A stretch of DNA of 64,000 nt from an uncultured Desulfuromonadales bacterium. GTDB lineage: Bacteria > Desulfobacterota > Desulfuromonadia > Geobacterales > CAIOGM01. Numbering within the stretch: the stretch's first letter is position 1; every line of letters begins with the position of its first letter. The notes beneath the pieces were generated by a model. That model ran no database searches. It had not been told where the DNA came from and saw only the letters and a program-made list of their open reading frames with translations. The stretch is from assembly GCA_903929485.1 (NCBI GenBank), contig CAIYUY010000287.1:38-64037 (forward strand). The letters run 5' to 3'. Shown here piece by piece: positions 16,292-35,800 of this stretch. A program made the translations under genes and the position numbers.

Positions 16292-16518
16292 GCCGCTATT
16301 TTAACTTGTCACGTGATGCGTGTCAAGCGGGAGAGAACATTTGAAGCTGCGTGGTACACAAGGTTGTTATTGGCGAGCGATATTTTATTCTGGTAGTCGT
16401 TGGGTGCGCACGGCTTCATGGTGCGCGCTAAAAACCCGTATGCACCCTACGCTTGCTTATAAGGATTGTCATTCCCGAGGGTTTAATCGGGAATCCGGAT
16501 GTTGAAAACCATGGAACT

Positions 16519-16553
16519 AACGCTCCGCTTCCGATCTTCGGAAGCGGAGCGTT
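16519..16553 (-). terminator. Hairpin AACGCTCCGCTTCCGA/TCGGAAGCGGAGCGTT immediately 3' of pyc remnant 1
   Basis: Read directly. It occupies the same position relative to the stop codon as the terminators of the other two pyc copies, but has a different sequence. Confidence 0.65.
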
Positions 16554-16576
16554 TTCACTTGTCATTTGAAAGAGCG

Positions 16577-16755
16577 TTACGCCAGCACGATGAGGAGGTC
16601 TTCCTTCTTTACCTTTTCCGCTTCCTTGAACTTCACCTCGGCGATGACACTATCTTCCTTGGCTTTGGGGTTGGTCTCCATCTTTATGGCCTCGGTGACC
16701 ATGAGGACATCGCGCACGGTCACCGACCGGGCATTGCCGTTCAGTTCGAAATAAC
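16577..16755 (-). pseudogene. Pyruvate carboxylase 3'-end remnant 1 (biotinyl domain tail with an internal deletion)
   Basis: It translates to YFELNGNARSVTVRD fused directly to VLMVTEAIKMETN...LLIVLA*. About 45 codons present in the intact copy are missing. Confidence 0.85.
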
Positions 16756-16756
16756 T

Positions 16757-16852
16757 CTGCTGGAAGATGTCGATATCACCGGCGCCAAGGGGGTTCTCGT
16801 CAACATCTGCTCTGCGGAAAAAAATCGACTGACCCTGGAGTGCCGGTGCTGA
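16757..16852 (+). pseudogene. Short FtsZ-like fragment (LLEDVDITGAKGVLVNI...RL...)
   Basis: About 13 of 17 residues are identical to the FtsZ segment [17 protein letters not shown] as I recall it. The fragment abuts pyc remnant 1 and has no start codon of its own. Confidence 0.4.
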
Positions 16853-17213
16853 CCGGGAGCAATAAGGAGGGGGGCAGGCGATGGAGTTGAGGGTCTTCGG
16901 TGGGCTCCTCAGGTTCACCCGGGTGTGGGTGGAGCGGGAGGGTTTTACGGGGAAGTCGATGCTCTGGCAGTGGTTCTGCTCGGATTCCACCGACTTCACC
17001 GGGTTCGTCGGCCACGTTGCGGCGGAATTCGTCTGCATGATCGGGCTGCCGGAAGAATGCCGGAGTTTTGTTACGGCACAGCTCCGCGAGTTTTTGGGCA
17101 AGGCTTCCAGATACCCGGCTGATCCGCATAATGCACAAAATATCTTCTTGCTTCAGGTGTGTTTGATATGGTATGGAATTAAATCAACACATTGGCTGCA
17201 GTATGGAGGATGT

Positions 17214-18005
17214 ATGGGATTGATATACGAAAATAGTGAAAACAACTCAGTTATTGGTGATATTAACTGGGCTATGTCAACTACAGGTACAAGGATTGCA
17301 GGAGGAGTTGATGGATTTTTTCCACAAAATAGTAATGTTATTATTAAATTTAAAGGCAATGATGTCGATTGTAGGATATCGTTAGACAGTAAGCGTAGAA
17401 CTATTAGTTGGGGTAAGAAAAGCGTAATAGCTAAAACATTGCGTGATAAATTTGGTGCGGAAAAGACAGCTTATAGAGAAAAATCAGTAGGCTGCAATAT
17501 TCTTATTGAAAAAATAAAAAATAAATACCAATTAAAATTTATATTTAGTGGTGGTGCTGATAGTGTTGGGAACTCTACAGTTTTTTGTCCTAATCCAGAT
17601 GAAGATAAGGTGAAAAGAATTTTTGCCATTATCAATGAAAGAAAGGGGCAATCTGAGTTTAGAAGTAAATTGCTGCATGCTTATAATAATAAGTGTGCTG
17701 TAACTGGTTGTGATGCTGTTGACGCATTGGAGGCGGCACACATATACCCCTATAGAGGAGAGCAAACAAATCATATTACAAATGGTTTGTTGCTGAGGGC
17801 CGATATTCATTCACTATTTGACCAGTTATTATTGTCAATTTCAAATAATTACGAAATAATTCTTCACGATTCAATTAGGAACGGGTACTATGGCGAATTG
17901 CATGACAGCTTTATATCACTTCCTGAAGATAAAAATAGTCATCCAAGTAAAGAAGCATTACGACATAACAGAAGTTTGATAAGAATTAGCAAGTCTGATG
18001 ATTGA
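17214..18005 (+). CDS. HNH endonuclease (HNH_2-type C-terminal nuclease) with an unrecognised ~150-aa N-terminal domain
   Basis: RKGQSEFRSKLLHAYNNKCAVTGCDAVDALEAAHIYPY...TNGLLLRADIHSLFD. The AT-rich composition begins near 17130, and the ATG at 17214 follows GGAGGA. The track ORF start at 16881 lies in unrelated GC-rich DNA. Confidence 0.8.
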   Translation: MGLIYENSENNSVIGDINWAMSTTGTRIAGGVDGFFPQNSNVIIKFKGNDVDCRISLDSKRRTISWGKKSVIAKTLRDKFGAEKTAYREKSVGCNILIEKIKNKYQLKFIFSGGADSVGNSTVFCPNPDEDKVKRIFAIINERKGQSEFRSKLLHAYNNKCAVTGCDAVDALEAAHIYPYRGEQTNHITNGLLLRADIHSLFDQLLLSISNNYEIILHDSIRNGYYGELHDSFISLPEDKNSHPSKEALRHNRSLIRISKSDD

Positions 18006-18149: not shown

Positions 18150-18869
18150 TCACCCCTCCCTCTCCGCATCGCTGACGGCAATGATTGACACCCGCCAATT
18201 CTGACCGAACGACTCATCCAGGTTGACCCCGATTAGTACATTGGCATCGCCGGCTGCATATTCGTGCAGAATCCTATTGACCGTGTCAAAATCATCCAGC
18301 GTCATATTGCTCGAACCGTATATGGTCGCCAAGAGGTGACAAAACCTTCCGTACCATATCTGATGGTCAATGGCACGCAGGGCATTGACCGCCGCATCCC
18401 GTGCGCCGGTCTCGCGACCGGCGCCGTACCCGATACCGAGCACTCCATCCCCGCCGCTTCCTGCGATGTATCTCACATCGGCAAAGTCGACGCAGACGAA
18501 ACCCATGTGCGTAATGAGATCAGTGCATGCCTGCACTGCCAGGCGAAGCAGCAGGATCTCCATGCCCTGTTTCGATATGAACTTTGCGTCATGTTTGTAA
18601 AGGGGGATGAGGCTGGTGCTCCCCACGGAGAGCCGCGTCACCGTTGCCGGCCAAGGGAGCGACTGCGGCAAATCGTTCGCTTGCAGAACGTCATCATGGC
18701 AGAGGGCGACCATGATCATCTTGTCAGAATTTTCTCCCACTCCCACGATGGCGCAGAGTTCCATTGCTAATGACGCGGCCTCCGCCCCCTCCTCCGCGCC
18801 TGTCCGACCGAGCCCCGCCACCAGTATCCGCGAGGGGAGCGGCCCAAGGTCTGCCATCTGTTCATTCAT
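18150..18869 (-). CDS. FtsZ-like protein lacking the N-terminal nucleotide-binding region
   Basis: 239 aa. LITHMGFVCVDFADVRYI...GIGYGAGRETGARDAAVNAL...MTLDDFDTVNRIL...ANVLIGVNLDES...WRVSIIAV aligns by eye to the FtsZ C-terminal domain. The tubulin signature region reads AGLGRTGAEEG instead of GGGTGTG, and about 90-100 N-terminal residues are absent. Confidence 0.75.
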   Translation of the reverse strand: MNEQMADLGPLPSRILVAGLGRTGAEEGAEAASLAMELCAIVGVGENSDKMIMVALCHDDVLQANDLPQSLPWPATVTRLSVGSTSLIPLYKHDAKFISKQGMEILLLRLAVQACTDLITHMGFVCVDFADVRYIAGSGGDGVLGIGYGAGRETGARDAAVNALRAIDHQIWYGRFCHLLATIYGSSNMTLDDFDTVNRILHEYAAGDANVLIGVNLDESFGQNWRVSIIAVSDAEREG

Positions 18870-19563: not shown

Positions 19564-19592
19564 GTTAGGGATAAGGACGGATTGTGTTGCGG

Positions 19593-20188
19593 TCAGGCCA
19601 GCACAATCAGCACGTCTTCCTTCGCCACCTTTTCCCCTTCCTTAAACTTTACCTCGGCAATGACGCTGTCTTCCTTGGCCATGATGTTGGTCTCCATCTT
19701 CATCGCCTCGGTGACCATGAGGACGTCCCCCCCCCTTCACCGCATCTCCGGCCTTGACCTTGACCTTGAGCACCCTGCCCGGCATGGGGCACCCAGATGC
19801 TTGGCGTTCCCCTTTTCGGCCTTCACTCGCTCTTTCTCATCGGTAGCAGCGGAGAAATCGCGTACGGTCACCGACCGGGCATTACCGTTCAGCTCGAAAT
19901 AAACCTGCCGGGTGCCGTCGCCCTGAACCTTGCCGATGGCGTTGAGCTTGATGATGAGGGTCTTTCCCGCCTGGATGTCCAGGGAGGTCTCCTGTCCCGG
20001 CTCCAGACCGTAGAAGAAGATGGGGGTCGAAATGAACGAGGTGTCGGAATACAGTTGGCAGTGCTGGTCCAGTTCCGGGTAAACGTGGGGATAGAGGATG
20101 TAGGAGATGAGCGCCTTGTCGTCGATCTTGTGGCCCACCTTCTCTTCCAGTTTCTCCCGTTCGACCTCAAACTCCACCGGTTCCAGCA
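19593..20188 (-). pseudogene. Pyruvate carboxylase 3'-end remnant 2 (last ~198 codons, frameshifted)
   Basis: It reads LEPVEFEVEREKLEEKVGHKIDDKALISYILYPHVYPELDQH...VYFELNGNARSVTVRD. The frame is then lost (indels near 19730-19800) before ...VLMVTEAMKMETN...VLIVLA*. It is about 87% identical to 32889-33030 by manual alignment. Confidence 0.9.
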
Positions 20189-20638: not shown

Positions 20639-22252
20639 CTAATTACCATGTCTGCGAAGCCATTCTGATTCATCAAGACCAATGCGAGTTATTTTATTCA
20701 GAAACTTCATAGCAATTCTCTGCGCCTGACCACTCCTCAGTTGCGCTAAAAAAGTGAACTTAACATTTGAAGTTTCATTTTGCTTGCCATACAATGGTTC
20801 GCCGATTTTAACAATAACTTTATCGTTGCCTTGTGATGCAGAAAACCAGAATACTTCCAATTTAGAAATATCTTCACTAGTTTTAAGATAAACAAAATTG
20901 TCATCTCCATCGGAGGCGATAATGTTGAATCCTTTAATGTTTCCGTCATCTATAGGATTAAAATCCTTCTTAACCAGTTTTATAAAAATAAATTTATTTA
21001 CACACTCAGCTTTAAGCCTCCCAGAATCGCACAAAGGCTGTACACACAAAAAAAATTCTTCGTTTTCATTCTTTAAAATGCTACCTAAACTTAAAAACGT
21101 TGCAGCATTATTATTTATAGCATCGGAAAATGCGTGAGAAGTGAGCTTCGCAAATATAGCTTGATTGACAAAGTCAACTTCTGGCGTTTCTTCTTTAGAA
21201 AAAAAAGTGACAAGACTTTTTGTTGTATCTTTACTCCATTTGTTAATTGCATCCTTCTTTTTCAGTTCAGTATCAGAATTTAAATTTTCATGCATCCATT
21301 TTGTTATTCCACTTAAAATCCACTGTTTTCGCATATCGTTGTCAATTTTAATTGAACCAATCTTATTAGCACTAAATTCTTTACAAGGAATATCGCCACA
21401 TTTAGCGTCTACCCAAGCGTTCAAAGTGCCACAGGAAAGATATTTGGTTATTGCTTCATTACCTCTTATGAGATCCTCAAAGGTTGCGGCCATAAGCTCT
21501 GTTACGAAAACATCTGCATCTTCGGGGCGAGATAAGTAGCATCTATGTGACAAAAAAGCTGGATCGTGTCGAGATGAGTATAACGAGAGAATGCGATGGG
21601 AATTATCTCTAATAACTTTTATAGCAGCTAAAGCTGCGGAAGGCATAAGACCCGAGTGCATATCTGAAAATTTTTCATAGATACGTTCAGGTAGCCCTTC
21701 ATAGGCCCCTGCGCATGTTTTGCTTGCATAAAAAACAGTTACGTGGTCGCTGCTTAAAGTATCTATATCTATGTTACTAATATTTTCAGCAGAGAAAATA
21801 CAAACCAAAACCTCTCTATCCTTATTTACGTGTTTTAGTTTACTGACTATTGCTTGTGCTGTTTCCCCGACTCCAACAGTCCCTAATTTATCTTCCATTT
21901 GCCAATCAAGTACAATCACATCTGCCTTAATTGACAGATTTACTACCTTACTCACTAATATATTTTTCTGTTCTTCTGACGTTATTTTATTAGTATATAT
22001 TGGACTACAAAGCATTCCTTTTTCCGAGCAAGCCTGTGATAACTTCTTTATATCGAGAATATGATTGATATCCTCTCGATTTTCACCTGGGTCCTGTAAT
22101 GGCACAATTTCAAGCAATGATTCTTTAAGCCCATTTTCAGGCTGATCCATAACATTTGCTGTCGTCTTTTCGTAGGGTTGGTCATCTACAAAAAGTACAG
22201 TGCCAATAAAATCTTGAGCTAATGCCTGCATATGGGCTGCAAATGCTGTCAT
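20639..22252 (-). CDS. Receiver (REC)-like domain protein with an unrecognised ~380-aa C-terminal region
   Basis: 537 aa. REC landmarks occur in order: VLFVDDQ, ADVIVLDWQM, VLVCIFSA, VFYASK. The ATGA overlap with the upstream GHKL gene indicates translational coupling. Confidence 0.7.
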   Translation of the reverse strand: MTAFAAHMQALAQDFIGTVLFVDDQPYEKTTANVMDQPENGLKESLLEIVPLQDPGENREDINHILDIKKLSQACSEKGMLCSPIYTNKITSEEQKNILVSKVVNLSIKADVIVLDWQMEDKLGTVGVGETAQAIVSKLKHVNKDREVLVCIFSAENISNIDIDTLSSDHVTVFYASKTCAGAYEGLPERIYEKFSDMHSGLMPSAALAAIKVIRDNSHRILSLYSSRHDPAFLSHRCYLSRPEDADVFVTELMAATFEDLIRGNEAITKYLSCGTLNAWVDAKCGDIPCKEFSANKIGSIKIDNDMRKQWILSGITKWMHENLNSDTELKKKDAINKWSKDTTKSLVTFFSKEETPEVDFVNQAIFAKLTSHAFSDAINNNAATFLSLGSILKNENEEFFLCVQPLCDSGRLKAECVNKFIFIKLVKKDFNPIDDGNIKGFNIIASDGDDNFVYLKTSEDISKLEVFWFSASQGNDKVIVKIGEPLYGKQNETSNVKFTFLAQLRSGQAQRIAMKFLNKITRIGLDESEWLRRHGN

Positions 22253-25218
22253 TTATTACTCCCACCGGATTTAGTATTAATCACAAAACATGCACCCACA
22301 TCAGGAGCAGGCGTCTGGATTTCTATTTCACAGTCAACTCCCTTTAATGCTTGTTTTACAATATACAAGCCAAGTCCGGCTCCACCGGGCTTTCGAGAAA
22401 ATCCGGGCTCGAATATTCTCTCGGTATCACGAACTGATACTCCGGGGCCACTGTCTTTAACATAAACGTTACCATCTCGATAATCTAGTGTAATCGACCT
22501 CGGAATAGGCTGATCTTTAAGCCAAAATATCGCGTTGTCAACAAGGTTCACAAACACCGGGTAATAAACTGAGCGAAAAGATAATTGCTTCATTGATTTG
22601 AAGGGTAGACTTGGCTTTATCTCTATTTTGTGTCGTTCCAGGCGGTTTTTGAATAGATCAGAGATGAAGTTGAATATTTCATGACCGTAAATATCTTCTT
22701 TGGATCGTCTCATTCTACGTTGCAGCGGAGCAAACAAGTTAAGATAACCGTCAAGATGTTCAAAGCTCGTACGCAAGTTTCCGTAAATAGGCTGTAGTTT
22801 GGTGTTTAGATCCGCCCATGATTTGAGCACGTTTATATTGTCGCGGATTTTTATGACTTGACTGTTAAATTCATGCTGAATGACACTCACAGCTTGGCCC
22901 ATCTGCATAAGTTCGATATCTTTTGTCTTCTCCTCTCGTAAAGCCAGATATTCAGCCTCAAGAGCAGCGACTTCTTCAGTTAGGGATTGTTCTTCGTCTG
23001 CATCAAAACTGACCCCTTGCAACTGTTCACGAATATGTACAAGTGAATTTTTCGTGGTTGCTGCAATGCGGTTGATTCTGTCTTCAAGTTCGAGCTTTGC
23101 GTTGACCAGTTCCGATTCATCAAGCGCTGTGAAGTCCGTCCGGCTAAATTGTGACATTACTTCACGCGTTGTTTTTTGGACTTCTGCAAGCGAGTTCTTA
23201 ACTACTTTTGACACCTTTCGTTGAAAATCAATGACAGTTTTTCGTACAGCACGCCCTTCTGCAGTGGATTCCTGCTCTTTTTGTCGAATCAAGTTACTCA
23301 AACTTACTTCAAATCGCTGGCGTTGATCTATAAAAACATCACATGCTCTTTGAGCATCTTGTGCTACTTGCTCTAATTGTCTACGAGTCGGCTGAAAAAT
23401 TTTTTCATCTAAATCTAACATTATTCTATTGTACCGGACCCAATCATCTTCAATGCTTTTCTTGAAAGAAACGACCTTTGGTCGATTTATTTCATAGGAA
23501 GATCGCCATTTTTGATATTCTGCATTTGAATTCCGTTCTGCCTCCATAAATGCAACGACCATGCTGTTTGATGCTGAACGGGTAAAAACGTTACGATAAT
23601 TTTCTGCTATACTCACCAATAGCTTAGTAGCTTCTTTTTGCGGTTCACCTTCATTTAAACGGACAAAAAACTTGTTTAGATCATTGCAAAATAGCTCTTT
23701 AGAACCTTTTAGGCGTTTTTCACGCTGCTGCAATGTTTTAGCGCGCTTTTTATTTGCTTCAGAATAATTAGCCCATTCCGAATTGATTGAGGTTTTTCGA
23801 AAAAAATCAGCAGTCAATTGCATTAAAAAATTTACTAAAATATCTCTCAATTGTCGATATGCTTTATTTTCTCGAAAACCTTCACGTCCAGCTTTTTCCT
23901 TCAAACTGTTATTACTTAGCTGAGAAATATCTACATAACCAAATAAATTCCTGTGCGAAAAATAGTAGTATCCAGCGCTTTTCGTTCTACGATACTCTAT
24001 ACCAAGCCAGTCATAATCTGAGCTGCCATAAGGTAGAATTCTAATGTCATCTTTGTAGATATAGACACCACCTAAACGCTGCGTTTTTGAAAGAATAACT
24101 GCATGTTGATCTAATGGTATATTAGTTGTGTCTCCTTCTGGTTGGATAATTGCCAAACTTACTTTAAATGGACCACACTCGGTTGGGATACCCGATCTGT
24201 TCGGCCATGTGATAACATGGTCTTCATATTCTTTTTTGCCAAATATGTTTACTTTTCCTTGAAATTGTCCATAGTTATCAAACTCACCCTCAATATGATG
24301 ATCTGCAAGTAAAAACTCGTCGGGGGTGAAAAAATCTTCTTTCTTTATTAGATTTCGCACAACACCGTCAACCATATGATCAAAAAACGATACCTTGATC
24401 ACATCTCGTTGATCATGATTTTTCATAGTATTTGAAAAGCCTAAAAGATGACGTTGAAGCGGTCCAGAGATTTCTTGAGCAGCAGTCCCAGGCATTCTCT
24501 CATCAATTGCAGCGTCAAGAGATTCATCTGTCGGCACGATGTAAAAATGTGTACCGTGCCCGGTATCCTTCAAAGAGAGATTTTTTTCGGAGAACCTTGC
24601 TACATCAATATCCTCCTGAAGTTGGGCGATATCAGTCAAAATGCGCTCAACGATCTTACGGGTTGCGACATTTCGTTCACTTAAATGAGATGCTGTAGAT
24701 GAAAATTCCGCAGTCAATTCATTGATATCGATTTTTGTAGGTATCTGTCCTTCGGGAAAGGTCTTAACTGGAATTTCAATTTCATCAAGATCGACACCTG
24801 GACATTCGAAAATTCCCCAGTGAATATATGCACAAACCAAATCAGATAATTTTTCATTACGGCATGCCCTCGTGAGAACAATCACCTGGCTTCCTATTGC
24901 AGCAATAGAGAGACGACCAATCCCTTTTTCACCTAATACAGGTCGAGGAGTCTCACCGGCGGGTACGTACGGTGTGTCCAGAACTTTGCTTTCCGTACCA
25001 AGAGTAAGCCATTTGTTGCGAAAATCATCTTCGCTCATGCCAATGCCGTCATCTCGCAATACAAACAGGCGCGTCTTACGGAAATAATCAGCTACCACAC
25101 GTTCGGCATAAGCATCATGAGCATTTTTGAATAGCTCGTTTATTGCGTTTGGAATACCGGCTATCTGCTGACGACCAAGCATGTCAAGTGCTCGTGCCCG
25201 AGTCTTAAATTTGGCCAT
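22249..25218 (-). CDS. Dual GHKL ATPase protein: an N-terminal MORC/Hsp90-like HATPase, a long coiled-coil middle, and a C-terminal histidine-kinase core (DHp-like H-box plus CA domain)
   Basis: The N-terminus has ELFKNAHDAYA, LRDDGIGMS and GEKGIGRLS. The C-terminus has VSVIQHEFNSQV, then about 115 residues later LVDNAIFW, KDSGPGV and GGAGLGLYIV. Confidence 0.8.
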   Translation of the reverse strand: MAKFKTRARALDMLGRQQIAGIPNAINELFKNAHDAYAERVVADYFRKTRLFVLRDDGIGMSEDDFRNKWLTLGTESKVLDTPYVPAGETPRPVLGEKGIGRLSIAAIGSQVIVLTRACRNEKLSDLVCAYIHWGIFECPGVDLDEIEIPVKTFPEGQIPTKIDINELTAEFSSTASHLSERNVATRKIVERILTDIAQLQEDIDVARFSEKNLSLKDTGHGTHFYIVPTDESLDAAIDERMPGTAAQEISGPLQRHLLGFSNTMKNHDQRDVIKVSFFDHMVDGVVRNLIKKEDFFTPDEFLLADHHIEGEFDNYGQFQGKVNIFGKKEYEDHVITWPNRSGIPTECGPFKVSLAIIQPEGDTTNIPLDQHAVILSKTQRLGGVYIYKDDIRILPYGSSDYDWLGIEYRRTKSAGYYYFSHRNLFGYVDISQLSNNSLKEKAGREGFRENKAYRQLRDILVNFLMQLTADFFRKTSINSEWANYSEANKKRAKTLQQREKRLKGSKELFCNDLNKFFVRLNEGEPQKEATKLLVSIAENYRNVFTRSASNSMVVAFMEAERNSNAEYQKWRSSYEINRPKVVSFKKSIEDDWVRYNRIMLDLDEKIFQPTRRQLEQVAQDAQRACDVFIDQRQRFEVSLSNLIRQKEQESTAEGRAVRKTVIDFQRKVSKVVKNSLAEVQKTTREVMSQFSRTDFTALDESELVNAKLELEDRINRIAATTKNSLVHIREQLQGVSFDADEEQSLTEEVAALEAEYLALREEKTKDIELMQMGQAVSVIQHEFNSQVIKIRDNINVLKSWADLNTKLQPIYGNLRTSFEHLDGYLNLFAPLQRRMRRSKEDIYGHEIFNFISDLFKNRLERHKIEIKPSLPFKSMKQLSFRSVYYPVFVNLVDNAIFWLKDQPIPRSITLDYRDGNVYVKDSGPGVSVRDTERIFEPGFSRKPGGAGLGLYIVKQALKGVDCEIEIQTPAPDVGACFVINTKSGGSNK

Positions 25219-26311
25219 GAATCGCCTCTAGGTGTTTGATAAAATGATTTCCCATGGCAAGCGCTAGATCAACAGGCACAGCATTTCCTATCTGTCTCGC
25301 CATGGAGTTTAAATTACCGGTAAACTCAAAATCATCGGCAAACCCTTGTAGACGCGCCGCCTCTCTAACACTGATGGCGCGGTCTTGCACCGGGTGTCCG
25401 AATCTGCCGTTTGAATAACTGATGCACCGTGTTGTTAGCCCTGGCGCCGGATAATCCCATCGGAGCCTACCATAACAGTCAGTGTGTCCGGAATGTGTTT
25501 TATCATTTTTATCTGTACGAGTGTAGCATGCAGGCCAGAGTTCCTTCGGCCAGTTATTACGGCCACCACCATTGTGAGCCGACGTTTTAATTCGTTCCAT
25601 ATTGAGATCAGACAACATAGCGGCACGATGATTCAGCACGCCACCACCAACATAACTCTCACCGGCAGCTATCACAGGTAGATCAAAGATTGCCTTATAA
25701 ACCGTTTCATATGGGGTATCAGCATCTCTTCCGTGGGTAGGTTCAGGAATGGATATTTCACCGTGCCTGCTTGCCAAAAAAACAAAACGCCTACGTAGTT
25801 GCGGCGCACCATAGTCTTGAGCAGCAACGACGCGACAGGCGATTTTGTAATTCATTCCTTCCAGGAGCTTTTTGAATTCAGGGAAAGGGCCTTGATCCTG
25901 TTTGGATATTTTTTGTAGTCCTGGAACATTTTCTACAAAGACAAAATCCGGCTGACACTCTTTTACTATTGAGCCGAAATACGTTAACAAATCCTTTCGA
26001 TCATCACTCTTACTACTTCCTGTAAATTGTTTGGTAAATGGCTGACAAGGAGCACAACCACAGAAAAGTTTGTAATTTCTATCACACTTATCTAATATCT
26101 GCTGAAAATCGGAAGCAGTTAGCTCTTTAATACTTTTATCGCAGAAAACAGTCGATGGAAAATTCTTGGTGAAGGTGTTCCTTGCGTCCTGATCAACATC
26201 AAGAGCAAAGGCGATATCCATCCCGGCTTTCTGAAATCCACTGCTCGTCCCGCCGCAACCGCAGAAGAAATCAAAAACCGATATATTTCTGTTTTTAATG
26301 GTTTTTATCAT
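25205..26311 (-). CDS. dcm: DNA (cytosine-5)-methyltransferase
   Basis: Motifs FDFFCGCGGTSSGF (I), GCAPCQPFT (IV), FVFVENV (VI), QLRRRFVF (VIII) and GNAVPV (X) are present. Confidence 0.95.
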   Translation of the reverse strand: MIKTIKNRNISVFDFFCGCGGTSSGFQKAGMDIAFALDVDQDARNTFTKNFPSTVFCDKSIKELTASDFQQILDKCDRNYKLFCGCAPCQPFTKQFTGSSKSDDRKDLLTYFGSIVKECQPDFVFVENVPGLQKISKQDQGPFPEFKKLLEGMNYKIACRVVAAQDYGAPQLRRRFVFLASRHGEISIPEPTHGRDADTPYETVYKAIFDLPVIAAGESYVGGGVLNHRAAMLSDLNMERIKTSAHNGGGRNNWPKELWPACYTRTDKNDKTHSGHTDCYGRLRWDYPAPGLTTRCISYSNGRFGHPVQDRAISVREAARLQGFADDFEFTGNLNSMARQIGNAVPVDLALAMGNHFIKHLEAIHGQI

Positions 26312-26474: not shown

Positions 26475-27698
26475 TCACCCTTGTACCCGCGATAAATCCA
26501 GCTCCCCCTTGAACGCCTTCCGGCTCACTACGCCATAGAGGTTTTCCAGTTCGGTCAGGTTCTGCTGGTAGCGGGTTTTGATGCCTTCGACTTTTTCAAC
26601 AATTGCCGCGAATTGGTTTTGGAGGGCGATTGGAGGGTAAGGAAATTCCAATATATCTAGAACACCTGTATTCATGTGTGTAAAAGTGCCATCAGGACCA
26701 GTTTTCAAACGACCAACACGTCCCTTGCAATACATCATAAGGGAGACAACATAAAGCGGTAGCAACTTTGATCCAAGCCGCAATCTTATCAAATTGGTGC
26801 TTATGATTCCGTGACCGGCATCCGTCTTTGCGACACACATCTTACCCACTGTGCCGGCACGAGAAATGACGATATCGCCATCAAGAACTGAATACGAAGT
26901 AAGCTGTCGGTATTTCTTCTCTGTTATCCACATCCGAAACGGTAGAATCATTCGTCCGGAAGGGTCAATATTATCCATGTTCCAGACAGGAACACCGGCT
27001 TTTACCAATTCTTCTTTTTTGAGGGCGCTACCAAATGGACCACATTTTGTACCGTCTTTCTGGCTACTATAAAATTCAGAGAGTTTTCTTACTGGAAATT
27101 TTTTTGGATTGACTATCGGATCACCAAACATCTCCAGGAAAACGCTCTTTAGCAGGTCATCCAGTTGCAGCAGGTTTTCCTTGCGCCGGGCGATCAACGT
27201 TTCAATTTTGCCAAGCAGATGGGCAATACGGATTTGGTCGTCAAGGGGCGGGAGAGGAATTTGCGATTCAAAAATAATTCTATCCGAGACAGCAGGATAG
27301 CTCGCCCCAGTAGCTCTATTCACCATCACATTTATAAATAGAGATGACTTTACCCATTGAAACAGGTACGTCCCGTCTATTGATTTATTAATCGGTCTGA
27401 GTACGCAAAAACCTGTTGAGGCAGTTGCACCGTCAAGTTCTGCAGGCACTCGTGCAACGCTGTTCAAATTAGGACGCACAGTTGAGACAAGAACATCACC
27501 ATATCTAACTATTTGACGGGCACGGCTTGGTGCATCTCCATTGGCTATTTCACGTACGCCTACAATCCTTTTGAAATTCTGGTCAACGGCGCTGAGGTCA
27601 ATGTAGTTGAAAACTTCATCCTTGGCGCCACGCAAAGGGTTCCAAGTCTTGGCACGAATAACCACATTGCCAATAGTCTGTGTCGTACAACCATTCAT
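26475..27698 (-). CDS. hsdS: Type I restriction-modification specificity subunit
   Basis: 407 aa with two target-recognition halves separated by the conserved helical spacer (LPPLDDQIRIAHLLGKIETLIARRKENLLQLDDLLKSVF) and a matching C-terminal helix. Confidence 0.9.
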   Translation of the reverse strand: MNGCTTQTIGNVVIRAKTWNPLRGAKDEVFNYIDLSAVDQNFKRIVGVREIANGDAPSRARQIVRYGDVLVSTVRPNLNSVARVPAELDGATASTGFCVLRPINKSIDGTYLFQWVKSSLFINVMVNRATGASYPAVSDRIIFESQIPLPPLDDQIRIAHLLGKIETLIARRKENLLQLDDLLKSVFLEMFGDPIVNPKKFPVRKLSEFYSSQKDGTKCGPFGSALKKEELVKAGVPVWNMDNIDPSGRMILPFRMWITEKKYRQLTSYSVLDGDIVISRAGTVGKMCVAKTDAGHGIISTNLIRLRLGSKLLPLYVVSLMMYCKGRVGRLKTGPDGTFTHMNTGVLDILEFPYPPIALQNQFAAIVEKVEGIKTRYQQNLTELENLYGVVSRKAFKGELDLSRVQG

Positions 27699-27773: not shown

Positions 27774-29438
27774 TCATCCGATCATCCCCCGCAACTCCAG
27801 CAACTCCCTGACTATCCCACTACTCACTCCACCCAACTCCTCTTCACTCGCCTCACCCACTTCGGACTTTAACAACTTTTCCAGAATTACCACCGCATTT
27901 TCGTAGAATACCTCTTCAAAAACATCGACCTTGTATCGGCTCAAGCTCAGATCATACCCCTCGGCCTCTATCTCGGAGCGTGGAACGACAAAACATTTCC
28001 GAGTCCGATCGGAATTGTTCTCCGAACTTCGACCATGATATCGGGCGACAATCTCCTGCAGATCGCCATACCCTTCCTGCTTGCTCCGCTTGTCGTCCAG
28101 CGAATAGCCGTCGGCGGCCATCTCATAAAACCAGACCTGCTCGGTGGCCGGTTTACTTACCTTCTCCTTTGGTCCCCAGACCTTGGTGAAGAGCAGAATG
28201 GCGGTGCTCACCCCGGCGTAGGGCTTGAAGACGCCGCTGGGCATGGTGATGACCGCCTGCAGGTCGCACCGCTCCACCAGCAACTGCCGCAGGTTCTTAA
28301 AGGCGCCGCCGGAGCCGAACAGGACCCCTTGCGGAACGATGACGCAGGCGGTTCCCCCCTTCTTCAGCAGGCGAAAGATGTTCTCCACAAAGAGGAGTTC
28401 TGTCTTGGTGGTGGCCAGACTCAGGTTCTCGTTGATGTCCCCCTTGTCGATGCTCCCGGTAAAAGGGGGATTGGCCATGATGATGTCGTACTTGGCCTCT
28501 TCGATGAAGCTCTTGCTCAGAGTGTCCTTGTAGTCGATGAGCGGCTTGTCGATGCCGTGCATCATCAGGTTCATGAGCCCCAAACGAACCATGGTGCTGT
28601 CGATATCGTAACCGAAAAGAGAACCGTTGAGGATTTCCTGAGCCTGCTTGGTAAGCCCGGCGGCGATGGAGGTCCGGACAAAACCGTCTTCATCGATGGG
28701 AAGATCCTTTGCCCCGGCCCGAAGCGCCAACCGGGTGACGATGTACTGATACGCCCCCAGCAGGAAGCCGCCGGAACCGCAGGCCGGGTCGGCGATGCGA
28801 TGTCCCAGCTGCGGTTGCGCCAGTTCGGCCATGAGCTTGATGATATGGCGCGGGGTGCGAAACTGACCGTTCTTCCCGGCGGCGGCGATCTCCGACAGGA
28901 GCATCTCGTACACATCCCCCTGGATATCCTGGAACGCCTGCCCCTTTTCATGGGAATCCTTCTCCATGATATCGAAGATTTCGTCGATGGTCTTCACCGC
29001 CTCCACCAGCAGGGCCGGCTTGGGGATGATGAAAACCGCGTTTTTCATGTGCCGGGAAAAGTTGGATTCCGCGCCGTTCAGATCCTTGAGAAAGGGAAAA
29101 ACCTTCCCCTGCACATGTTGCAACATCTCTTCCGCCTGCATCCGTTTGAATTCGCTCCACCGAAGGGTTCGCTTCTCCACGGCAAAGGGTTTTTGATCGG
29201 CCTCGGGCTTGTCGAGATGTTCCGGCGGAATCCAGACGCCGCTGAATCGGGAACCATAGCTGTCGCCGGTAAATTCGGCATCGGCCAGCTTTTTTTGATC
29301 CAGCTCGTCCAGTTGTTTCATGAACAACAGATAGGTGATCTGCTCGATGGCGGTGAGCGGGTTGGAGATGCCGCCGCTCCAGAATTTGTTCCAGAGCTGG
29401 TCGATCTTGGATTTCAGTTCAGGGTTGTTTTGCAGCAT
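27774..29438 (-). CDS. hsdM: Type I restriction-modification N6-adenine methyltransferase subunit
   Basis: HsdM N-terminal region (LWNKFWSGGISNPLTAIEQITYLLF), AdoMet motif IADPACGSGGFL and catalytic IIMANPPF. Confidence 0.95.
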   Translation of the reverse strand: MLQNNPELKSKIDQLWNKFWSGGISNPLTAIEQITYLLFMKQLDELDQKKLADAEFTGDSYGSRFSGVWIPPEHLDKPEADQKPFAVEKRTLRWSEFKRMQAEEMLQHVQGKVFPFLKDLNGAESNFSRHMKNAVFIIPKPALLVEAVKTIDEIFDIMEKDSHEKGQAFQDIQGDVYEMLLSEIAAAGKNGQFRTPRHIIKLMAELAQPQLGHRIADPACGSGGFLLGAYQYIVTRLALRAGAKDLPIDEDGFVRTSIAAGLTKQAQEILNGSLFGYDIDSTMVRLGLMNLMMHGIDKPLIDYKDTLSKSFIEEAKYDIIMANPPFTGSIDKGDINENLSLATTKTELLFVENIFRLLKKGGTACVIVPQGVLFGSGGAFKNLRQLLVERCDLQAVITMPSGVFKPYAGVSTAILLFTKVWGPKEKVSKPATEQVWFYEMAADGYSLDDKRSKQEGYGDLQEIVARYHGRSSENNSDRTRKCFVVPRSEIEAEGYDLSLSRYKVDVFEEVFYENAVVILEKLLKSEVGEASEEELGGVSSGIVRELLELRGMIG

Positions 29439-29452
29439 TGAAGTCCTCTCTT

Positions 29453-29485
29453 AACCACGGAAAACACTGAAAGCACGGAAATCAC
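29453..29485. repeat. Copy 1 of the motif AACCACGGAAnACACyGAAAGCACGGAAA flanking the GxxExxY gene
   Basis: Read directly. The same orientation is seen at 29871-29903. Confidence 0.85.
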
Positions 29486-29862
29486 AAAACAAATCGCTCA
29501 ATCTGCGTCTGTGAGTGACTGCCAAAATTTATCAATAGTCCCAGTTTGAATTTTGTTGCTTTCAGATAGTTGATTACTTGTGCCTTGTGTTCCGGTGCGA
29601 CTTCCTTAACAGATTTTAGCTCCAGGATAATCTGTCCGTAACAAATCAGATCTGGCTTGTAGATCTGGAGGAGACATTCACCCTTATAGCTGAGTTTCAA
29701 TTCGGGCTGTGAAACAAAGGGGACGCCTTGCGCCTTGAGCTCTTTTTCAAGGCATTCCTGATAAACAGCTTCCAGAAATCCGCATCCCATTTCCCGATAA
29801 ACTTCAAACACCGCACCGCGAATGGCAAACGTCTCTTTCTCATAAAGTAAGTCCATTGCCAC
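29482..29862 (-). CDS. GxxExxY-family protein (PD-(D/E)XK-like small protein)
   Basis: The family-defining pattern is GAVFEVYREMGCGFLEAVYQECLEKEL, followed by DLICYGQIILELK. The ATG at 29856 may be the real start. Confidence 0.85.
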   Translation of the reverse strand: MAMDLLYEKETFAIRGAVFEVYREMGCGFLEAVYQECLEKELKAQGVPFVSQPELKLSYKGECLLQIYKPDLICYGQIILELKSVKEVAPEHKAQVINYLKATKFKLGLLINFGSHSQTQIERFVL

Positions 29863-32856: not shown

Positions 32857-32888
32857 CGTTGCCGCAGATCAGGTGAAGTGGCCGCCGG

Positions 32889-35800
32889 TCAGGCCAGCAC
32901 GATCAGCAGATCTTCCTTCTCCACTTTCTCACCTTCCTTGAACTTCACCTCGGCGATAACGCACTCTTCCCTGGCCTTGATGTTGGTCTCCATCTTCATT
33001 GCCTCGGTAACCATGAGGACATCCCCCACCTTCACCCCGTCACCGGCCTTGACGTTGACCTTGAGCACCTTGCCCGGCATGGGAGCGCCCAGATGCTTGG
33101 GGTTCCCCTTCTCGGCCTTCTCCCGCTCCTTCCCGTCGGTGGCGGCGGAGAGGTCGCGCACGGTTACCGACCTGGCGTTGCCGTTAAGTTCGAAGTAGAC
33201 CTGGCGGGTGCCGTCACCCTGAACCTTGCCGATGGCGTTGAGTTTGATAATGAGGGTCTTCCCCGGCTCGATGTCCAGGGAGGTCTCCTGCCCCGGCTCC
33301 AGGCCGTAGAAGAAGATGGGGGTTGGAATGACCGAGGTGTCGGAATAAAGCTGGCGATGCTGGTCCAGTTCCGGATAGACATGGGGATAGAGAATATACG
33401 AGATGAGCGCCTTGTCGTCTATCTTGTGCCCCACCTTCTCTTCCAGTTTCTCCCGTTCAACTTCGAACTCCACCGGCTCCAGCAGCTCTCCGGGGCGACA
33501 GGTGATGGGCTGCTCCCCTTTCAGGATAATCTTTTGCAGCTCCTCCGGCCACCCCTGGTACGGTTGGCCCAACATCCCCTTGAACATTCCCACCACCGAC
33601 TCGGGAAAAGTCAGCTCTTCCCCCTGGGTAAAGACATCCTCGGGCTGGAGGTTGTTCTTCATGAGGAAAATGGCCATGTCTCCCACGACCTTGGACGAGG
33701 GGGTGACCTTGACGATGTCGCCGAAGAGGAGATTTACCTTGTGGTACATCTCCTTGCACTCCTCCCATCGGTCCAGGAGTCCCAGTCCCGCCACCTGGGG
33801 TTTGTAGTTGGAGTATTGACCCCCCGGGATCTCGTGGTGATAGACCTCGGCCGTGCCGGATTTTAGTCCCGACTCGAAGGGGGCGTAGTAGTCGCGCACC
33901 GTCTCCCAGTAGTTGGCCAAGCTCTGGAGTCCGGCTGCGTTGACCATGGGATCGCGCTCTGTCCCCTCCATGGCCGCCACCAGGGCGTTCAGGTTGGGCT
34001 GGGCCGTGAGCCCGGAGAGAGAGGAGAGGGCGGCGTCCACGATGTCAACCCCGGCCTCGGAGGCCTTCAGGAGCATGGCGCTCCCGTTGGATGAGGTGTC
34101 GTGGGTGTGAAGGTGAATGGGGATGCCGATGTTCTCCTTCAGCGCCTTCACCAGCTTATAGGCTGCCTGGGGTTTGAGGAGGCCGGCCATGTCCTTGATG
34201 GCCAAAATGTGAGCCCCCATCTGCTCCAGCTCCTTGGCCATGTTCACGTAGTAATTTAGCGGGTATTTGTCCCGCCGGGGGTCGGTGATGTCGCCGGTAT
34301 AGCAGATGGCCGCCTCGCAGATCTTACCACTCTTTCTCACCGCATCCATGGCCACGGTCATCCCCTTGGTCCAGTTCAGGGAGTCGAAGATCCGGAAGAT
34401 GTCTATCCCCGAGTTGGCCGCCTCCTCGACGAACTTTTCCACCACGTTGTCGGGGTAGTTGGTGTACCCCACGGCGTTGCTCCCCCGGAGGAGCATTTGG
34501 AAAAGGATGTTGGGAATCGCCTCGGAGAGCTTGTGGAGCCGCTGCCAGGGGTCTTCCTTCAAAAACCGCATGGAGACGTCGAAGGTGGCTCCCCCCCAAC
34601 ACTCCAGGGAAAAGAGCTCCGCCCCCAGGTAGGAGGTGGGCTCGGCGATCTTGAGGATGTCGTGGGTTCTGACCCTGGTGGCCAGGTTGGACTGGTGGGC
34701 GTCCCGCATGGTGGTGTCGGTGAGGAGGAGCTTCTTCTGCTCCAGTATCCACTTGGAGAGCCCTTCGGCCCCCAGCATCATGAGGAGGTCGCGGCTCCCC
34801 GCCGGCCGCGATCTGGTGAAGTCAACCTCGGGCACCCGGGCTTCCATGAGATCGGCCGACTTGAGCGGCTTGACGATCCCCGGCGAGCCGTTAACGACCA
34901 CATCCCCCAGGAACTTGAGCACCTTGCTGGCTCGGTCTTTTTTCTCCCGGAACTGGAGCAGTTCCGGGTGTTTGTCCATGAAGGAGGTGTTGCATTTGCC
35001 TGCCATGAACACGGGGTGGGTGATGACGTTTTCCAGAAAACCGATATTGGTCTTGACTCCGCGGATCCGGAACTCCTGCAGCGCCCGGTGCATGACGTGA
35101 GCCGCGCCCTGGAAGGTGAGCCCCCAGGCGCTGATCTTCACCAGAAGGGAATCATAGTGGGGGGTGATCTTGGCGCCGTTGAAGGCGTTCCCCGCGTCCA
35201 GCCGGACGCCGAAACCGGCGGCGGAGCGGTAGGTGGTCAGCGTGCCGAAATCCGGCGCAAAGTTGTTTGCCGGGTCTTCGGTGGTGACCCGGCACTGGAT
35301 GGAGTAACCGCGGATGTCAATGGCGCTCTGGGAGGGGATGTTGATCTCCTGATCGGAGAGTTTGTACCCCTGGGCAACGAGAATCTGGTACTGCACCAGG
35401 TTGCGGCCGGTGATCATCTCGGTGACCGTGTGTTCCACCTGGATGCGGGGGTTCATCTCGATGAAATACCACTGTCCTTCCTGGTCCAGAAGGAATTCCA
35501 CCGTGCCGGCGTTGCGATATTTAACCTGACCGGCGATCTTCAAGGCTGCGTCGCAGAGCTCTTCCCGCTGGAGCTGAGTCAGGGAAAGAGAGGGGGCAAA
35601 CTCCACCACCTTCTGGTGGCGGCGCTGGATGGAGCAGTCCCTTTCATAAAAGTGGACGAGATTGCCGTAGTTGTCTCCCAGGACCTGCACTTCGATATGT
35701 TTGGGGTTCTCCAGGTAGCGCTCAAGAAAGACCGCGGCGTCACCGAAGGCCGCCTTGGCCTCGCTGGCGGCGGCGACCAGCCCTTCCAGCAACTCCTTCT

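What the first reader, a model, noticed from the sequence alone, without database searches (positions are those of the whole stretch)
20639..22252. Receiver-domain protein whose ~380-aa output region matches nothing I can recognise: the putative effector of the Dcm-linked module
The N-terminal ~160 aa show the receiver landmarks in order. There is an unusually long acidic insertion between beta1 and beta3 (residues ~25-110). The remaining ~380 aa have no PD-(D/E)XK, HNH, GIY-YIG, PLD or HTH pattern visible by eye. If the operon restricts DNA or kills the cell, the activity presumably resides here.
Basis: inference. Interest (0 to 1): 0.62.

Follow-up and report, generated by a model that had tools for sequence, protein, structure and literature searches.

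The report
Receiver protein with unassigned output module
This gene encodes the response-regulator half of a published but never tested two-component pair that travels with a DNA cytosine methylase. Its conserved 355-residue output module resembles no known protein domain and is the best candidate for what the system actually does.

Summary
The ORF 20639-22252 (-) is real and encodes 537 aa. Residues 1-182 are a genuine receiver: Pfam Response_reg_2 (PF19192) scores 69.9 bits, and D23, D24, D116, S154 and K178 are conserved in 95 relatives. The insertion spans only residues 25-66, is disordered, and is not acidic across the family.

Residues 183-537 match nothing in Pfam, NCBIfam, PADLOC, PHROGs or PDB sequences. 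A confident AlphaFold model (pLDDT 84-89) shows an all-alpha domain followed by a beta-rich domain. It has no significant Foldseek neighbour. The only recurring similarity is weak, to MazF/PemK, and a profile comparison does not support it.

The module carries the signature C403-x-Q-P-x-C408-D409-S-x-R412 and an EWLRR tail. It occurs only fused to this receiver.

The gene belongs to the Dcm / HEF_HK kinase / Response_reg_2 / Vsr cassette described computationally by Bellieny-Rabelo et al. 2021, which left the C-terminus unassigned. In 19 of 20 assessable loci the order is Dcm-kinase-receiver. Two copies sit between housekeeping genes with no separate nuclease.

In one pair of loci the kinase-receiver block is 94% identical in DNA but paired with an unrelated Dcm. 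The pair therefore does not carry methylase-matched sequence specificity.

Best reading: a phosphorylation-gated effector of unknown chemistry (confidence about 0.45). It is a new member of a known kind, of moderate interest.

The parts
20639..22252 (-). RR-like gene, 537 aa (Response_reg_2 family); 36.2% G+C against 54.7% for the window
21707..22252 (-). Receiver domain, residues 1-182, with D23, D24, D116 (phospho-acceptor, codon 21905-21907), S154 and K178
   Evidence: Pfam PF19192; AlphaFold secondary structure; column conservation; Foldseek receiver hits; codons checked
22055..22180 (-). Disordered insertion between beta1 and alpha1, residues 25-66, net charge -6 here; length and charge vary across the family
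   Evidence: pLDDT below 50 at 33-59; family statistics
21137..21706 (-). All-alpha domain, residues 183-372. The conserved N-terminal half (183-262) holds G201, R215, D230 and H236. The second half (263-372) is hypervariable
20642..21136 (-). Beta-rich domain (373-505), a long helix (507-522) and a tethered C-terminal helix carrying E530-W531-L532-R533. Fold similarity to MazF/PemK is weak
21017..21046 (-). Family signature C403-V-Q405-P-L-C408-D409-S-G-R412, on a strand-loop-short-helix element. A candidate active or metal site
   Evidence: C403 100%, Q405 97%, C408 99%, D409 97% and R412 97% of 95 sequences. The C-x3-x-C-D core is present in all 20 locus-derived relatives; 19 of 20 also keep the R
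22249..25218 (-). Partner HK-like gene, 989 aa. It has a paraMORC-type GHKL head (HATPase_c_3), an S5-like region, about 300 aa of coiled coil, the HEF_HK DHp domain (H782-E-F) and the HATPase_c catalytic domain
25205..26311 (-). C5 cytosine DNA methyltransferase (Dcm), 368 aa; overlaps the kinase start by 14 nt
   Evidence: PF00145 E 1.6e-57; TIGR00675
20167..20631 (-). Vsr very-short-patch mismatch endonuclease, 154 aa from the ATG at 20631 (the ORF listing starts at TTG 20682)
   Evidence: PF03852 and TIGR00632 E 6e-45; start inspected
19590..20085 (.). Degenerate copy of the pyruvate carboxylase 3' end: left boundary repeat of the 13.3-kb island that holds the type I R-M genes and this cassette
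   Evidence: direct repeats at 86-90% identity, spacing 13,296 nt; PYC_OADA remnant
32886..33381 (.). Partner copy of the pyc 3' end: right boundary of the island

Best explanation
Identity (shown). The gene encodes the response-regulator partner of the paraMORC-GHKL/HEF_HK histidine-kinase-like protein encoded just upstream. It is a member of Pfam Response_reg_2. With the upstream Dcm it forms a self-contained, horizontally mobile three-gene module, here extended by Vsr.

Mechanism (inferred):
1. The kinase-like protein uses its N-terminal MORC/MutL-like ATPase head as the sensor, in place of a classical input domain. Most likely the head clamps DNA.
2. A signal linked to cytosine methylation passes down the long coiled coil to the DHp/CA core. 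The signal is probably read through the Dcm protein or through a generic property of the DNA, because the kinase-receiver block works with unrelated Dcm enzymes.
3. H782 is phosphorylated and the phosphoryl group moves to D116 of this protein.
4. Phosphorylation changes the receiver's hold on the conserved helical segment 183-262. This switches the C-terminal module: the alpha domain plus the beta domain carrying C403/Q405/C408/D409/R412.
5. That module carries out the output. Most probably it attacks nucleic acid, either restricting DNA or cleaving RNA in a MazF/ToxN-like abortive response.

What is shown and what is not. Shown: family membership, the intact phospho-acceptor set, the two-domain architecture, exclusivity to this system, purifying selection and independence from the Dcm lineage. 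Inferred: the direction of control, the nature of the signal and the chemistry of the output.
For: Family membership and pairing: and PMC8011034, which reports 91.6% linkage of the two genes over 644 regions.

Receiver: the catalytic set is invariant in 95 relatives. H782-E-F is invariant in 12 of 12 kinases, as is the N-box Asn.

Structure: the AlphaFold model is confident (pLDDT 89, pTM 0.85 full length; 84 for the C-terminus alone) and shows two domains after the receiver.

Exclusivity: the C-terminal module alone recovers 1254 clusters, and all listed full-length hits carry it at about 200-550 of proteins of about 520-600 aa. In 401 genomes of the phylum it occurs in 4, each time in a 533-567-aa ORF on the same contig as a roughly 990-aa kinase hit.

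Gene order: Dcm-kinase-receiver in 19 of 20 assessable loci.

Minimal module: L008 and L010 are flanked directly by housekeeping genes (glmS, DeoR, LysR; YicC, RNase PH) with no nuclease gene.

Selection: dN/dS is 0.10-0.135 for the receiver gene and 0.04-0.06 for the kinase gene. The receiver protein diverges faster than its kinase in every pair compared.

Restriction link: the kinase head is homologous to the N-terminus of BbrUII/HgiDII-family type II restriction enzymes (NF050001, E 5e-18; PADLOC REase_II).

Fold hints: MazF from four species tops the PDB search (TMt 0.47-0.59, prob up to 0.91) and a PemK-like protein tops BFVD.

Foreign origin: 36-46% G+C, on a 13.3-kb island bounded by pyc 3' repeats. 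The system is absent from three genomes of the same genus and present in 5 of 37 genomes of the same order.
Against: - No sequence, profile or significant fold similarity to any nuclease, RNase or toxin. Foldseek's best E is 0.12 in PDB and 0.064 in BFVD. hhalign against 25 PemK/MazF sequences gives 0.3% probability. No family is shared by more than one of the 28 C-termini scanned against Pfam.
- Three loci (L003, L075, L077) carry a conserved 252-254-aa HNH_2 nuclease directly after the receiver gene, and L006 carries a NOV_C gene there. The nuclease could be a separate protein, with this module acting as its regulator.
- No domain of the module is basic; median net charges run from -4 to +2.
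- No experiment exists for any member of the family (literature searches).
- Coordinates of the model could not be inspected, so it is not shown that the invariant residues cluster in space.
Confidence: 0.45

Rival explanations
1. The module is a non-catalytic adaptor or licensing subunit. It binds DNA, the Dcm protein or the kinase's GHKL head and, when phosphorylated, recruits or activates a nuclease encoded elsewhere. Candidates are Vsr, the operon HNH_2 or NOV_C protein, or a host enzyme. The parallel is MutL activating MutH and Vsr.
For: The slot after the receiver gene holds a nuclease of varying type: Vsr in 11 of 22 systems, HNH_2 in 3 and NOV_C in 1. The GHKL head is MutL/MORC-like, and MutL is known to stimulate Vsr (discussed in PMC2292703). 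The extreme C-terminus is a tethered helix with a near-invariant EWLRR motif, as expected of a docking peptide. No catalytic fold is recognisable.
Against: L008 and L010 have no nuclease gene near the triad, and L011 has none on the same strand downstream. Invariant Cys, Gln, Cys, Asp and Arg on a strand-loop-helix element look more like an active or metal site than a binding surface. Canonical Vsr nicks only T:G mismatches, so it is a poor restriction effector (established knowledge).
Confidence: 0.25
2. The module is specifically a MazF/PemK/ToxN-type endoribonuclease. The beta-rich domain would be a diverged CcdB/MazF-fold RNase held off by the receiver and released on phosphorylation, giving abortive infection. 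This is a sub-case of the best explanation.
For: MazF from E. coli, S. aureus, D. radiodurans and M. tuberculosis recurs at the top of the PDB fold search (TMt 0.46-0.59). A PemK-like protein is the top BFVD hit. The order of secondary-structure elements (beta-beta-alpha-beta x4-5, then a C-terminal helix) is compatible (comparison with MazF is from my own knowledge). There is precedent for paraMORC ATPases fused to HEPN RNases in R-M neighbourhoods (PMC3710099).
Against: All Foldseek E-values are at or above 0.06. hhalign gives 0.3% probability. PF02452 matches none of the 28 C-termini even at E 1. The long beta1-beta2 loop that carries the catalytic Arg in MazF is replaced by a tight hairpin (residues 396-399).
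Confidence: 0.12
3. The protein is a transcriptional or regulatory response regulator. The C-terminus would be an unusual DNA-binding output that tunes expression of dcm, vsr or neighbouring R-M genes. This is the role suggested by Bellieny-Rabelo et al.
For: Most response regulators are transcription factors (established knowledge). The 2021 paper proposes signalling that controls R-M systems. There are very weak Pfam hints of a winged helix at 292-335 (E 0.089).
Against: No HTH or wHTH family was found in more than one of the 28 members. At 355 aa with an invariant Cys/Asp/Arg motif, the module is atypical for a DNA-binding output. The kinase-receiver block is kept at 94% identity after its Dcm and promoter-proximal DNA were replaced. 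The protein is net acidic.
Confidence: 0.1
4. The pair is a repair accessory rather than a defence system. It would be a MutL-like, methylase-agnostic module that handles T:G mismatches or other damage caused by 5-methylcytosine, working with or in place of Vsr.
For: The block is indifferent to which Dcm it accompanies (L008 against L010), as expected of something that reads a generic consequence of cytosine methylation. Vsr is frequently linked (11 of 22). The head is MutL-like.
Against: The distribution is patchy, the G+C is foreign and the gene sits on an island next to a type I R-M system, all typical of defence cargo. A repair role does not explain the receiver protein's rapid divergence (62% identity against 87% for its kinase and Dcm in L005/L007). 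One locus (L076) has the pair without an adjacent Dcm.
Confidence: 0.08

Closest known systems
HEF_HK / Response_reg_2 two-component-like pair linked to C5-methylases (Bellieny-Rabelo, Pretorius & Moleleki 2021, Genome Biol Evol, PMC8011034; Pfam PF19191 and PF19192)
   Same: The window's genes are members. Both Pfam models score above cut-off. The genes are adjacent and overlapping, Dcm lies upstream and Vsr downstream, which is the commonest layout reported in that paper.
   Different: Nothing essential differs. The paper defines only the receiver and DHp domains, and in the sections I read it assigns no domain or role to the roughly 355-aa C-terminus. The two-domain model, the CxQPxCDSxR signature, the lack of fold neighbours and the Dcm-swap observation are additions made here.
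BbrUII/HgiDII-family GHKL restriction enzymes (NCBIfam NF050001) and the paraMORC ATPases of R-M operons (Iyer, Abhiman & Aravind 2008, PMC2292703)
   Same: The partner kinase's first ~190 residues are homologous to the head of these enzymes (E 5e-18). They also sit next to a gene of about 305-363 aa where a methylase would be expected (these genes were not scanned).
   Different: Those are single chains of about 550-670 aa with their own C-terminal parts, and have no kinase core or receiver partner. The receiver's C-terminus shows no similarity to any part of them (hmmsearch E >= 0.12; hhalign <= 0.7%).
Detocs, a three-gene defensive two-component system with a kinase, a buffer receiver and a receiver-PNP effector (own knowledge of Millman et al. 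2022 and Rousset et al. 2023)
   Same: The logic of a His-Asp phosphorelay ending in a receiver fused to a non-transcriptional effector, carried on defence islands.
   Different: There is no methylase, no GHKL/MORC head and no second buffer receiver gene here, and the effector domain is different. No PADLOC model matched the receiver protein.
MazF/PemK/Kid (CcdB/MazF superfamily) endoribonuclease toxins
   Same: The only recurring, though non-significant, fold neighbour of the beta-rich domain. The size is similar, the order of secondary-structure elements is compatible, and both end in a C-terminal helix.
   Different: There is no sequence or profile similarity. The catalytic loop is absent. 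The conserved residues lie at a different place, the beta2-alpha1 junction.
Enzyme-output response regulators such as CheB, PleD/WspR, RpfG and PorX (established knowledge; PorX and WspR appear among the Foldseek receiver hits)
   Same: The architecture of an N-terminal receiver controlling a C-terminal catalytic domain through the alpha4-beta5-alpha5 face.
   Different: The output module here is unrelated to any of theirs.

Membership tests
Response_reg_2 (PF19192) RR-like family | Match to the Pfam model above its gathering score | tested here: met
   69.9 bits against a cut-off of 27, residues 15-160
Response_reg_2 (PF19192) RR-like family | Conserved receiver residues: acidic pair after beta1, Asp at the end of beta3, Thr/Ser at beta4, Lys at beta5 | tested here: met
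   D23, D24, D116, S154 and K178; 97-100% conserved in 95 relatives
Response_reg_2 (PF19192) RR-like family | Adjacent gene encoding a HEF_HK (PF19191) kinase-like protein, usually with an N-terminal HATPase_c_3 domain | tested here: met
   The 989-aa upstream gene has PF13589, PF19191 and PF02518. The same holds in 12 of 12 related loci
Response_reg_2 (PF19192) RR-like family | Neighbourhood enriched in R-M genes, especially a C5-methylase and Vsr | tested here: met
   Dcm upstream, Vsr downstream, and type I hsdR/M/S next door
Canonical response regulator (receiver fold, phospho-acceptor) | (beta-alpha)5 fold similar to solved receiver domains | tested here: met
   AlphaFold secondary structure. 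Foldseek hits to LvrB, RcsB, PhoP, DrrB and VanR receivers, prob 0.93-0.99. PF00072 itself is not matched
Canonical response regulator (receiver fold, phospho-acceptor) | Actual phosphotransfer from the partner kinase to the Asp | not testable with these tools
   Needs a Phos-tag or 32P assay with the H782 and D116 mutants
MazF/PemK (CcdB/MazF superfamily) | Sequence or profile similarity to PF02452 | tested here: not met
   No PF02452 hit in 28 members at E <= 1. hhalign against 25 PemK sequences gives probability 0.3%
MazF/PemK (CcdB/MazF superfamily) | Same fold (SH3-like barrel plus C-terminal helix) | tested here: inconclusive
   Best PDB hit 5cqy_B: E 0.12, prob 0.91, TMt 0.53. 7d2n_C: TMt 0.59. 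Top BFVD hit is PemK-like at E 0.064
PD-(D/E)XK, HNH, GIY-YIG or PLD nucleases | Profile match or catalytic motif | tested here: not met
   No nuclease family is shared by more than one of the 28 C-termini; three different nuclease families each match one member at E 0.14-0.79. No conserved (D/E)xK follows D409, and the beta domain has no conserved His
HEPN RNases | Rx4-6H motif in an all-alpha domain | tested here: not met
   The only candidate, R215-x3-H219, has the wrong spacing, and H219 is kept in only 57 of 95 sequences. No HEPN-clan Pfam hit
BbrUII/HgiDII-type restriction enzyme, tested as a split version | Homology of the receiver's C-terminus to the C-terminal half of the single-chain enzymes | tested here: not met
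   hmmsearch E >= 0.12 and hhalign probability <= 0.7% against three groups of GHKL restriction-enzyme relatives
Classical type II R subunit matched to its methylase | Specificity element that co-varies with the methylase target-recognition domain | tested here: not met
   L008/L010: kinase 97% and receiver 95% identical, but Dcm 32% (8-19% in the windows where the target-recognition domain is expected). L005/L007: Dcm 87%, but the receiver's variable region 37%
Detocs | Kinase, stand-alone buffer receiver and receiver-effector, with no methylase | tested here: not met
   No second receiver gene in the operon. No PADLOC model matched

The most novel reading that the evidence does not exclude
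The C-terminal module is a new catalytic fold, a nuclease or other toxin built around the invariant Cys-Gln-Cys-Asp-Arg site, whose activity is switched by aspartate phosphorylation. This would be the first methylase-linked immune system run by a His-Asp phosphorelay. A MORC-like DNA clamp would serve as the sensor. Self and non-self would be told apart through the methylase or a generic methylation signal, not through a sequence-matched restriction subunit.
Probability: 0.3. Interest if true: 0.85.

Novelty: new member of a known kind. Interest (0 to 1): 0.5.

Why it matters
The family is large: at least 1254 clusters at 50% identity. It is spread across many phyla, always rides with a cytosine methylase, and has never been tested at the bench.

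If the output module proves to be a phosphorylation-gated nuclease or toxin, three things would follow. A new effector fold would be added. It would show that bacteria use two-component signalling inside a restriction-like system. It would also give a prokaryotic model for how a MORC-type ATPase turns a DNA-methylation cue into a downstream action, which is still an open question for eukaryotic MORCs.

The Dcm-swap observation narrows the mechanism. Neither the kinase nor the receiver protein can hold the sequence specificity.

If the module is instead only an adaptor, the finding is an ordinary annotation gap in a published family.

Tried and rejected
1. 'Split HgiDII'. The idea was that the receiver's C-terminus is the detached nuclease half of GHKL restriction enzymes. 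I fetched 17 relatives of NF050001 and found no similarity.
2. MazF/PemK homology by profile. hhalign against 25 PemK sequences from related genomes gave 0.3% probability. It is kept only as a weak fold hint.
3. HEPN. The R215-x3-H219 spacing is wrong and the His is poorly conserved.
4. PD-(D/E)XK around D409. There is no conserved (D/E)xK.
5. The hypervariable region 263-372 as a DNA-specificity element matched to the Dcm. A double dissociation rejects this.
6. P0013 (333 aa) as a natural receiver-less form. Its gene is a frameshift-split receiver gene inside a normal Dcm-kinase-receiver-Vsr cassette.
7. The window's own HNH_2 gene (16881-18005, + strand) as part of the system. It shares only the 95-aa HNH core (31% identity) with the operon-type HNH_2 proteins, and lies in a separate islet.
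8. MADS and other recent defence systems. MADS has no kinase or receiver of this kind, and the other literature searches found nothing.
9. A second word-index search with the family alignment added no new relatives.
10. Basic patches that would indicate nucleic-acid binding. No domain is basic.
11. Plasmid and phage records. There are only two weak plasmid hits, one a remnant cut by IS5, and no phage hit.
Full report
**The gene and its setting**

The window has a low-G+C stretch at about 20-28 kb, roughly 40% against 55-58% around it. On the minus strand it holds a tight row of genes:
- hsdR (29965-32775)
- a PDDEXK_3 gene (29482-29862)
- hsdM (27774-29438)
- hsdS (26475-27698)
- a C5 cytosine methylase (25205-26311)
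- a 989-aa ATPase/kinase-like gene (22249-25218)
- the ORF in question (20639-22252, 537 aa)
- Vsr

The last four overlap or nearly abut. Dcm and the kinase overlap by 14 nt, and the kinase and the receiver gene by 4 nt. The likely Vsr ATG at 20631 lies 7 nt after the receiver gene's stop. G+C falls to 36.2% in the receiver gene.

Direct repeats of the pyruvate carboxylase 3' end lie at 19590-20085 and 32886-33381 (86-90% identity, spacing 13,296 nt). They bracket the type I genes together with this cassette, and a third, shorter copy lies at 16574-16795. The cassette is therefore cargo of an integrated island.

**Checking the observation**

The N-terminus matches Pfam Response_reg_2 (PF19192) at E 4e-19 over residues 15-160.

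I aligned the protein with 94 relatives (22-74% identical) and predicted its structure with AlphaFold2. The model has pLDDT 89.0 and pTM 0.85.
- It shows a regular (beta-alpha)5 receiver up to residue 182.
- D23, D24, D116, S154 and K178 sit at the expected positions, all 97-100% conserved.
- Foldseek returns solved receiver domains for this part.
- This is a true phospho-accepting receiver, not a pseudo-receiver.

It covers residues 25-66, between beta1 and alpha1, and is predicted to be disordered. Residues 67-110 are ordinary alpha1-beta2-alpha2. The insertion has net charge -6 here, but across the family its length is 12-69 aa and its charge varies.

**The output region**

Residues 183-537 gave nothing in Pfam, NCBIfam, PADLOC or PHROGs. 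Scanning 28 family members one by one gave no family shared by more than one of them. Family profiles matched no PDB sequence.

The model divides the region into two parts:
- an all-alpha domain (183-372, with a small hairpin at 291-303);
- a beta-rich domain (373-505), followed by a long helix (507-522) and a short terminal helix (530-535).

A separate model of residues 181-537 gave the same secondary structure (pLDDT 84.2). I searched it against PDB and BFVD. No match reached E 0.001.
- The only recurring neighbours were MazF toxins from four species (E 0.12-2.1, TM-score 0.46-0.59 normalised to MazF) and a phage PemK-like protein (E 0.064).
- A profile-profile comparison with 25 PemK/MazF sequences from related genomes gave no support (0.3% probability).
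- I therefore treat the MazF-like fold as a lead only.

**Conservation**

The first half of the alpha domain (183-262) and the C-terminal helices (506-537) are the most conserved parts of the whole protein (mean column entropy 2.03 and 1.61). Residues 263-372 are as variable as the disordered insertion (entropy 3.07).

Near-invariant polar residues are:
- R215, D230 and H236;
- the block C403-x-Q405-P-x-C408-D409-S-x-R412, on a strand-loop-short-helix element;
- R523, G525, E530, W531 and R533.

The C-x3-x-C-D core of the motif is present in all 20 relatives I extracted from genomes, including the most divergent one. That protein (L074) reads CLSPACD, has lost the motif's Arg, and has an alpha domain that is no longer recognisable.

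**Family and context**

phmmer with the C-terminal region alone, against 1.84 billion representatives, found 1254 proteins at E <= 0.001. Every full-length hit listed carries the module at the C-terminus of a protein of about 520-600 aa. In a sample of 401 genomes from the same phylum, the module occurs in four. Each time it lies in a 533-567-aa ORF on the contig that also holds a roughly 990-aa kinase-like gene. It was not seen free-standing or fused to anything else.

The pair is published. Bellieny-Rabelo et al. [quoted passage not shown] They also noted the excess of C5-methylases, Vsr and HNH_2 nearby, and the paraMORC-like head of the kinase. In the sections I read they did not describe the C-terminus of the receiver protein. 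No experimental paper turned up.

My own tally covers 22 systems: the window, 12 genome loci, one metagenome contig and 8 further genomes.
- Dcm lies directly upstream in 19 of 20 assessable cases.
- Vsr is in the operon in 11. In two of these it sits between Dcm and the kinase.
- A conserved 252-254-aa HNH_2 protein follows the receiver gene in 3 cases.
- A NOV_C gene follows it in 1 case.
- There is no nuclease near the triad in L008 and L010, where it lies directly between housekeeping genes.

The three-gene unit is therefore self-sufficient.

**Two natural experiments**

L008 (Neptunicella) and L010 (Marinomonas) share 94.5% DNA identity from the last 84 nt of dcm to the end of the receiver gene. 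Their kinases are 97% identical and their receiver proteins 95%, with every receiver region at 90-100%. Yet the methylase upstream is a different gene: 32% identity overall, and 8-19% in the alignment windows where the target-recognition domain is expected. Both genes remain under purifying selection (dN/dS 0.04-0.06 for the kinase, 0.10-0.135 for the receiver gene).

The converse holds for L005 and L007. They have 87%-identical methylases and kinases, but receiver proteins only 62% identical, falling to 37% in the variable region.

It follows that neither the kinase nor the receiver protein carries DNA specificity matched to the methylase. The receiver protein also evolves faster than its partners. 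This argues against a classical type II restriction subunit. It points instead to a generic effector whose trigger is read through the methylase itself or through a sequence-independent cue.

**How it most likely works**

Shown:
- an intact receiver;
- an intact kinase core (H782-E-F and the N-box Asn in 12 of 12 kinases);
- an intact MORC/MutL-type head, homologous to the head of BbrUII/HgiDII restriction enzymes;
- a conserved output module that is exclusive to this system and under selection.

Inferred:
- The ATPase head takes the place of a sensor domain and engages DNA.
- A methylation-related signal travels through about 300 residues of coiled coil to the kinase core.
- Phosphotransfer to D116 releases the C-terminal module.
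- That module attacks nucleic acid.

I put this at about 0.45. The main rival, at 0.25, is that the module is an adaptor that licenses a nuclease encoded elsewhere. This would fit the variable nuclease slot downstream and the EWLRR tail. Transcriptional control (0.10) and a repair accessory role (0.08) are less likely.

**Verdict**

The gene is a new member of a known, computationally defined family whose output domain is still unassigned.
- a confident two-domain model with no significant fold neighbours in PDB or BFVD (the only libraries available);
- a family signature;
- exclusivity of the module to this system;
- the minimal three-gene unit;
- evidence that the kinase-receiver block is independent of the methylase lineage.

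Interest is moderate (0.5). It would be high if the module proves to be a phosphorylation-gated effector.

Noticed in passing
L008:3960-9632 against L010:3555-9632: The kinase-receiver block is 94.5% identical in DNA from the last 84 nt of dcm onward, but is paired with an unrelated C5-methylase (32% aa identity). The flanks are unrelated. The two-gene block moves and recombines as a unit.
   Followed up: yes
L005:3867-9566 against L007:3921-9563: The methylases and kinases are 87% identical but the receiver proteins only 62%, falling to 37% in residues 263-372. The receiver protein is the fastest-evolving component in every pair compared.
   Followed up: partly
L003:4359-5117; L075:9975-10733; L077:10452-11216: A 252-254-aa HNH_2 protein, 72-84% identical between a Patescibacteria MAG and two genomes of the window's phylum, sits directly after the receiver gene. 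In L075 and L077 it precedes Vsr. It may be the nuclease of that sub-lineage.
   Followed up: partly
L072:4407-4838; L073:4289-4753: In two systems of the same order, Vsr lies between Dcm and the kinase instead of after the receiver gene.
   Followed up: no
L004:7899-9598; L069:6325-8002; L078:5748-6753: The receiver gene is split by a frameshift in two loci. A Pseudomonas syringae plasmid carries a remnant cut by an IS5 element. These could be sequencing errors, or inactivation of a costly gene.
   Followed up: partly
L076:5305-9851: A kinase-receiver pair with no adjacent Dcm. The upstream neighbours are an unassigned 401-aa ORF on the other strand and an S24 peptidase-like gene.
   Followed up: no
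L074:6218-8023: A divergent 601-aa family member. The receiver and the beta domain (CLSPACD) are recognisable, but the alpha domain and the EWLRR tail are not. The beta domain appears to be the conserved core.
   Followed up: partly
window 22249-25218: Residues 386-983 of the kinase-like protein match phrog_8137 (unknown function) at E 3e-97. The receiver protein has no PHROG and no hit in 50,697 phage records. In the kinase G1 box the Asp (D922) is Asn in 10 of 12 sequences compared.
   Followed up: no
window 16574-16795, 19590-20085, 32886-33381: Three direct copies of the pyruvate carboxylase 3' end delimit two stacked islands. One is a 13.3-kb island holding the type I R-M genes and the Dcm cassette. 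The other is a smaller islet holding an HNH_2 gene and an FtsZ_C-like ORF.
   Followed up: partly
window 16881-18005 (+): A solitary 374-aa HNH_2 endonuclease gene at 45% G+C. It shares only the HNH core (31% over 95 aa) with the operon-type HNH_2 proteins.
   Followed up: partly
window 29482-29862 (-): A PDDEXK_3 (PF13366, E 3e-42) gene is inserted between hsdR and hsdM of the type I system.
   Followed up: no
window 18150-18869 (-) and 16499-16852 (+): ORFs with weak FtsZ_C matches (E 1e-7 and 2e-3) lie in the smaller islet.
   Followed up: no
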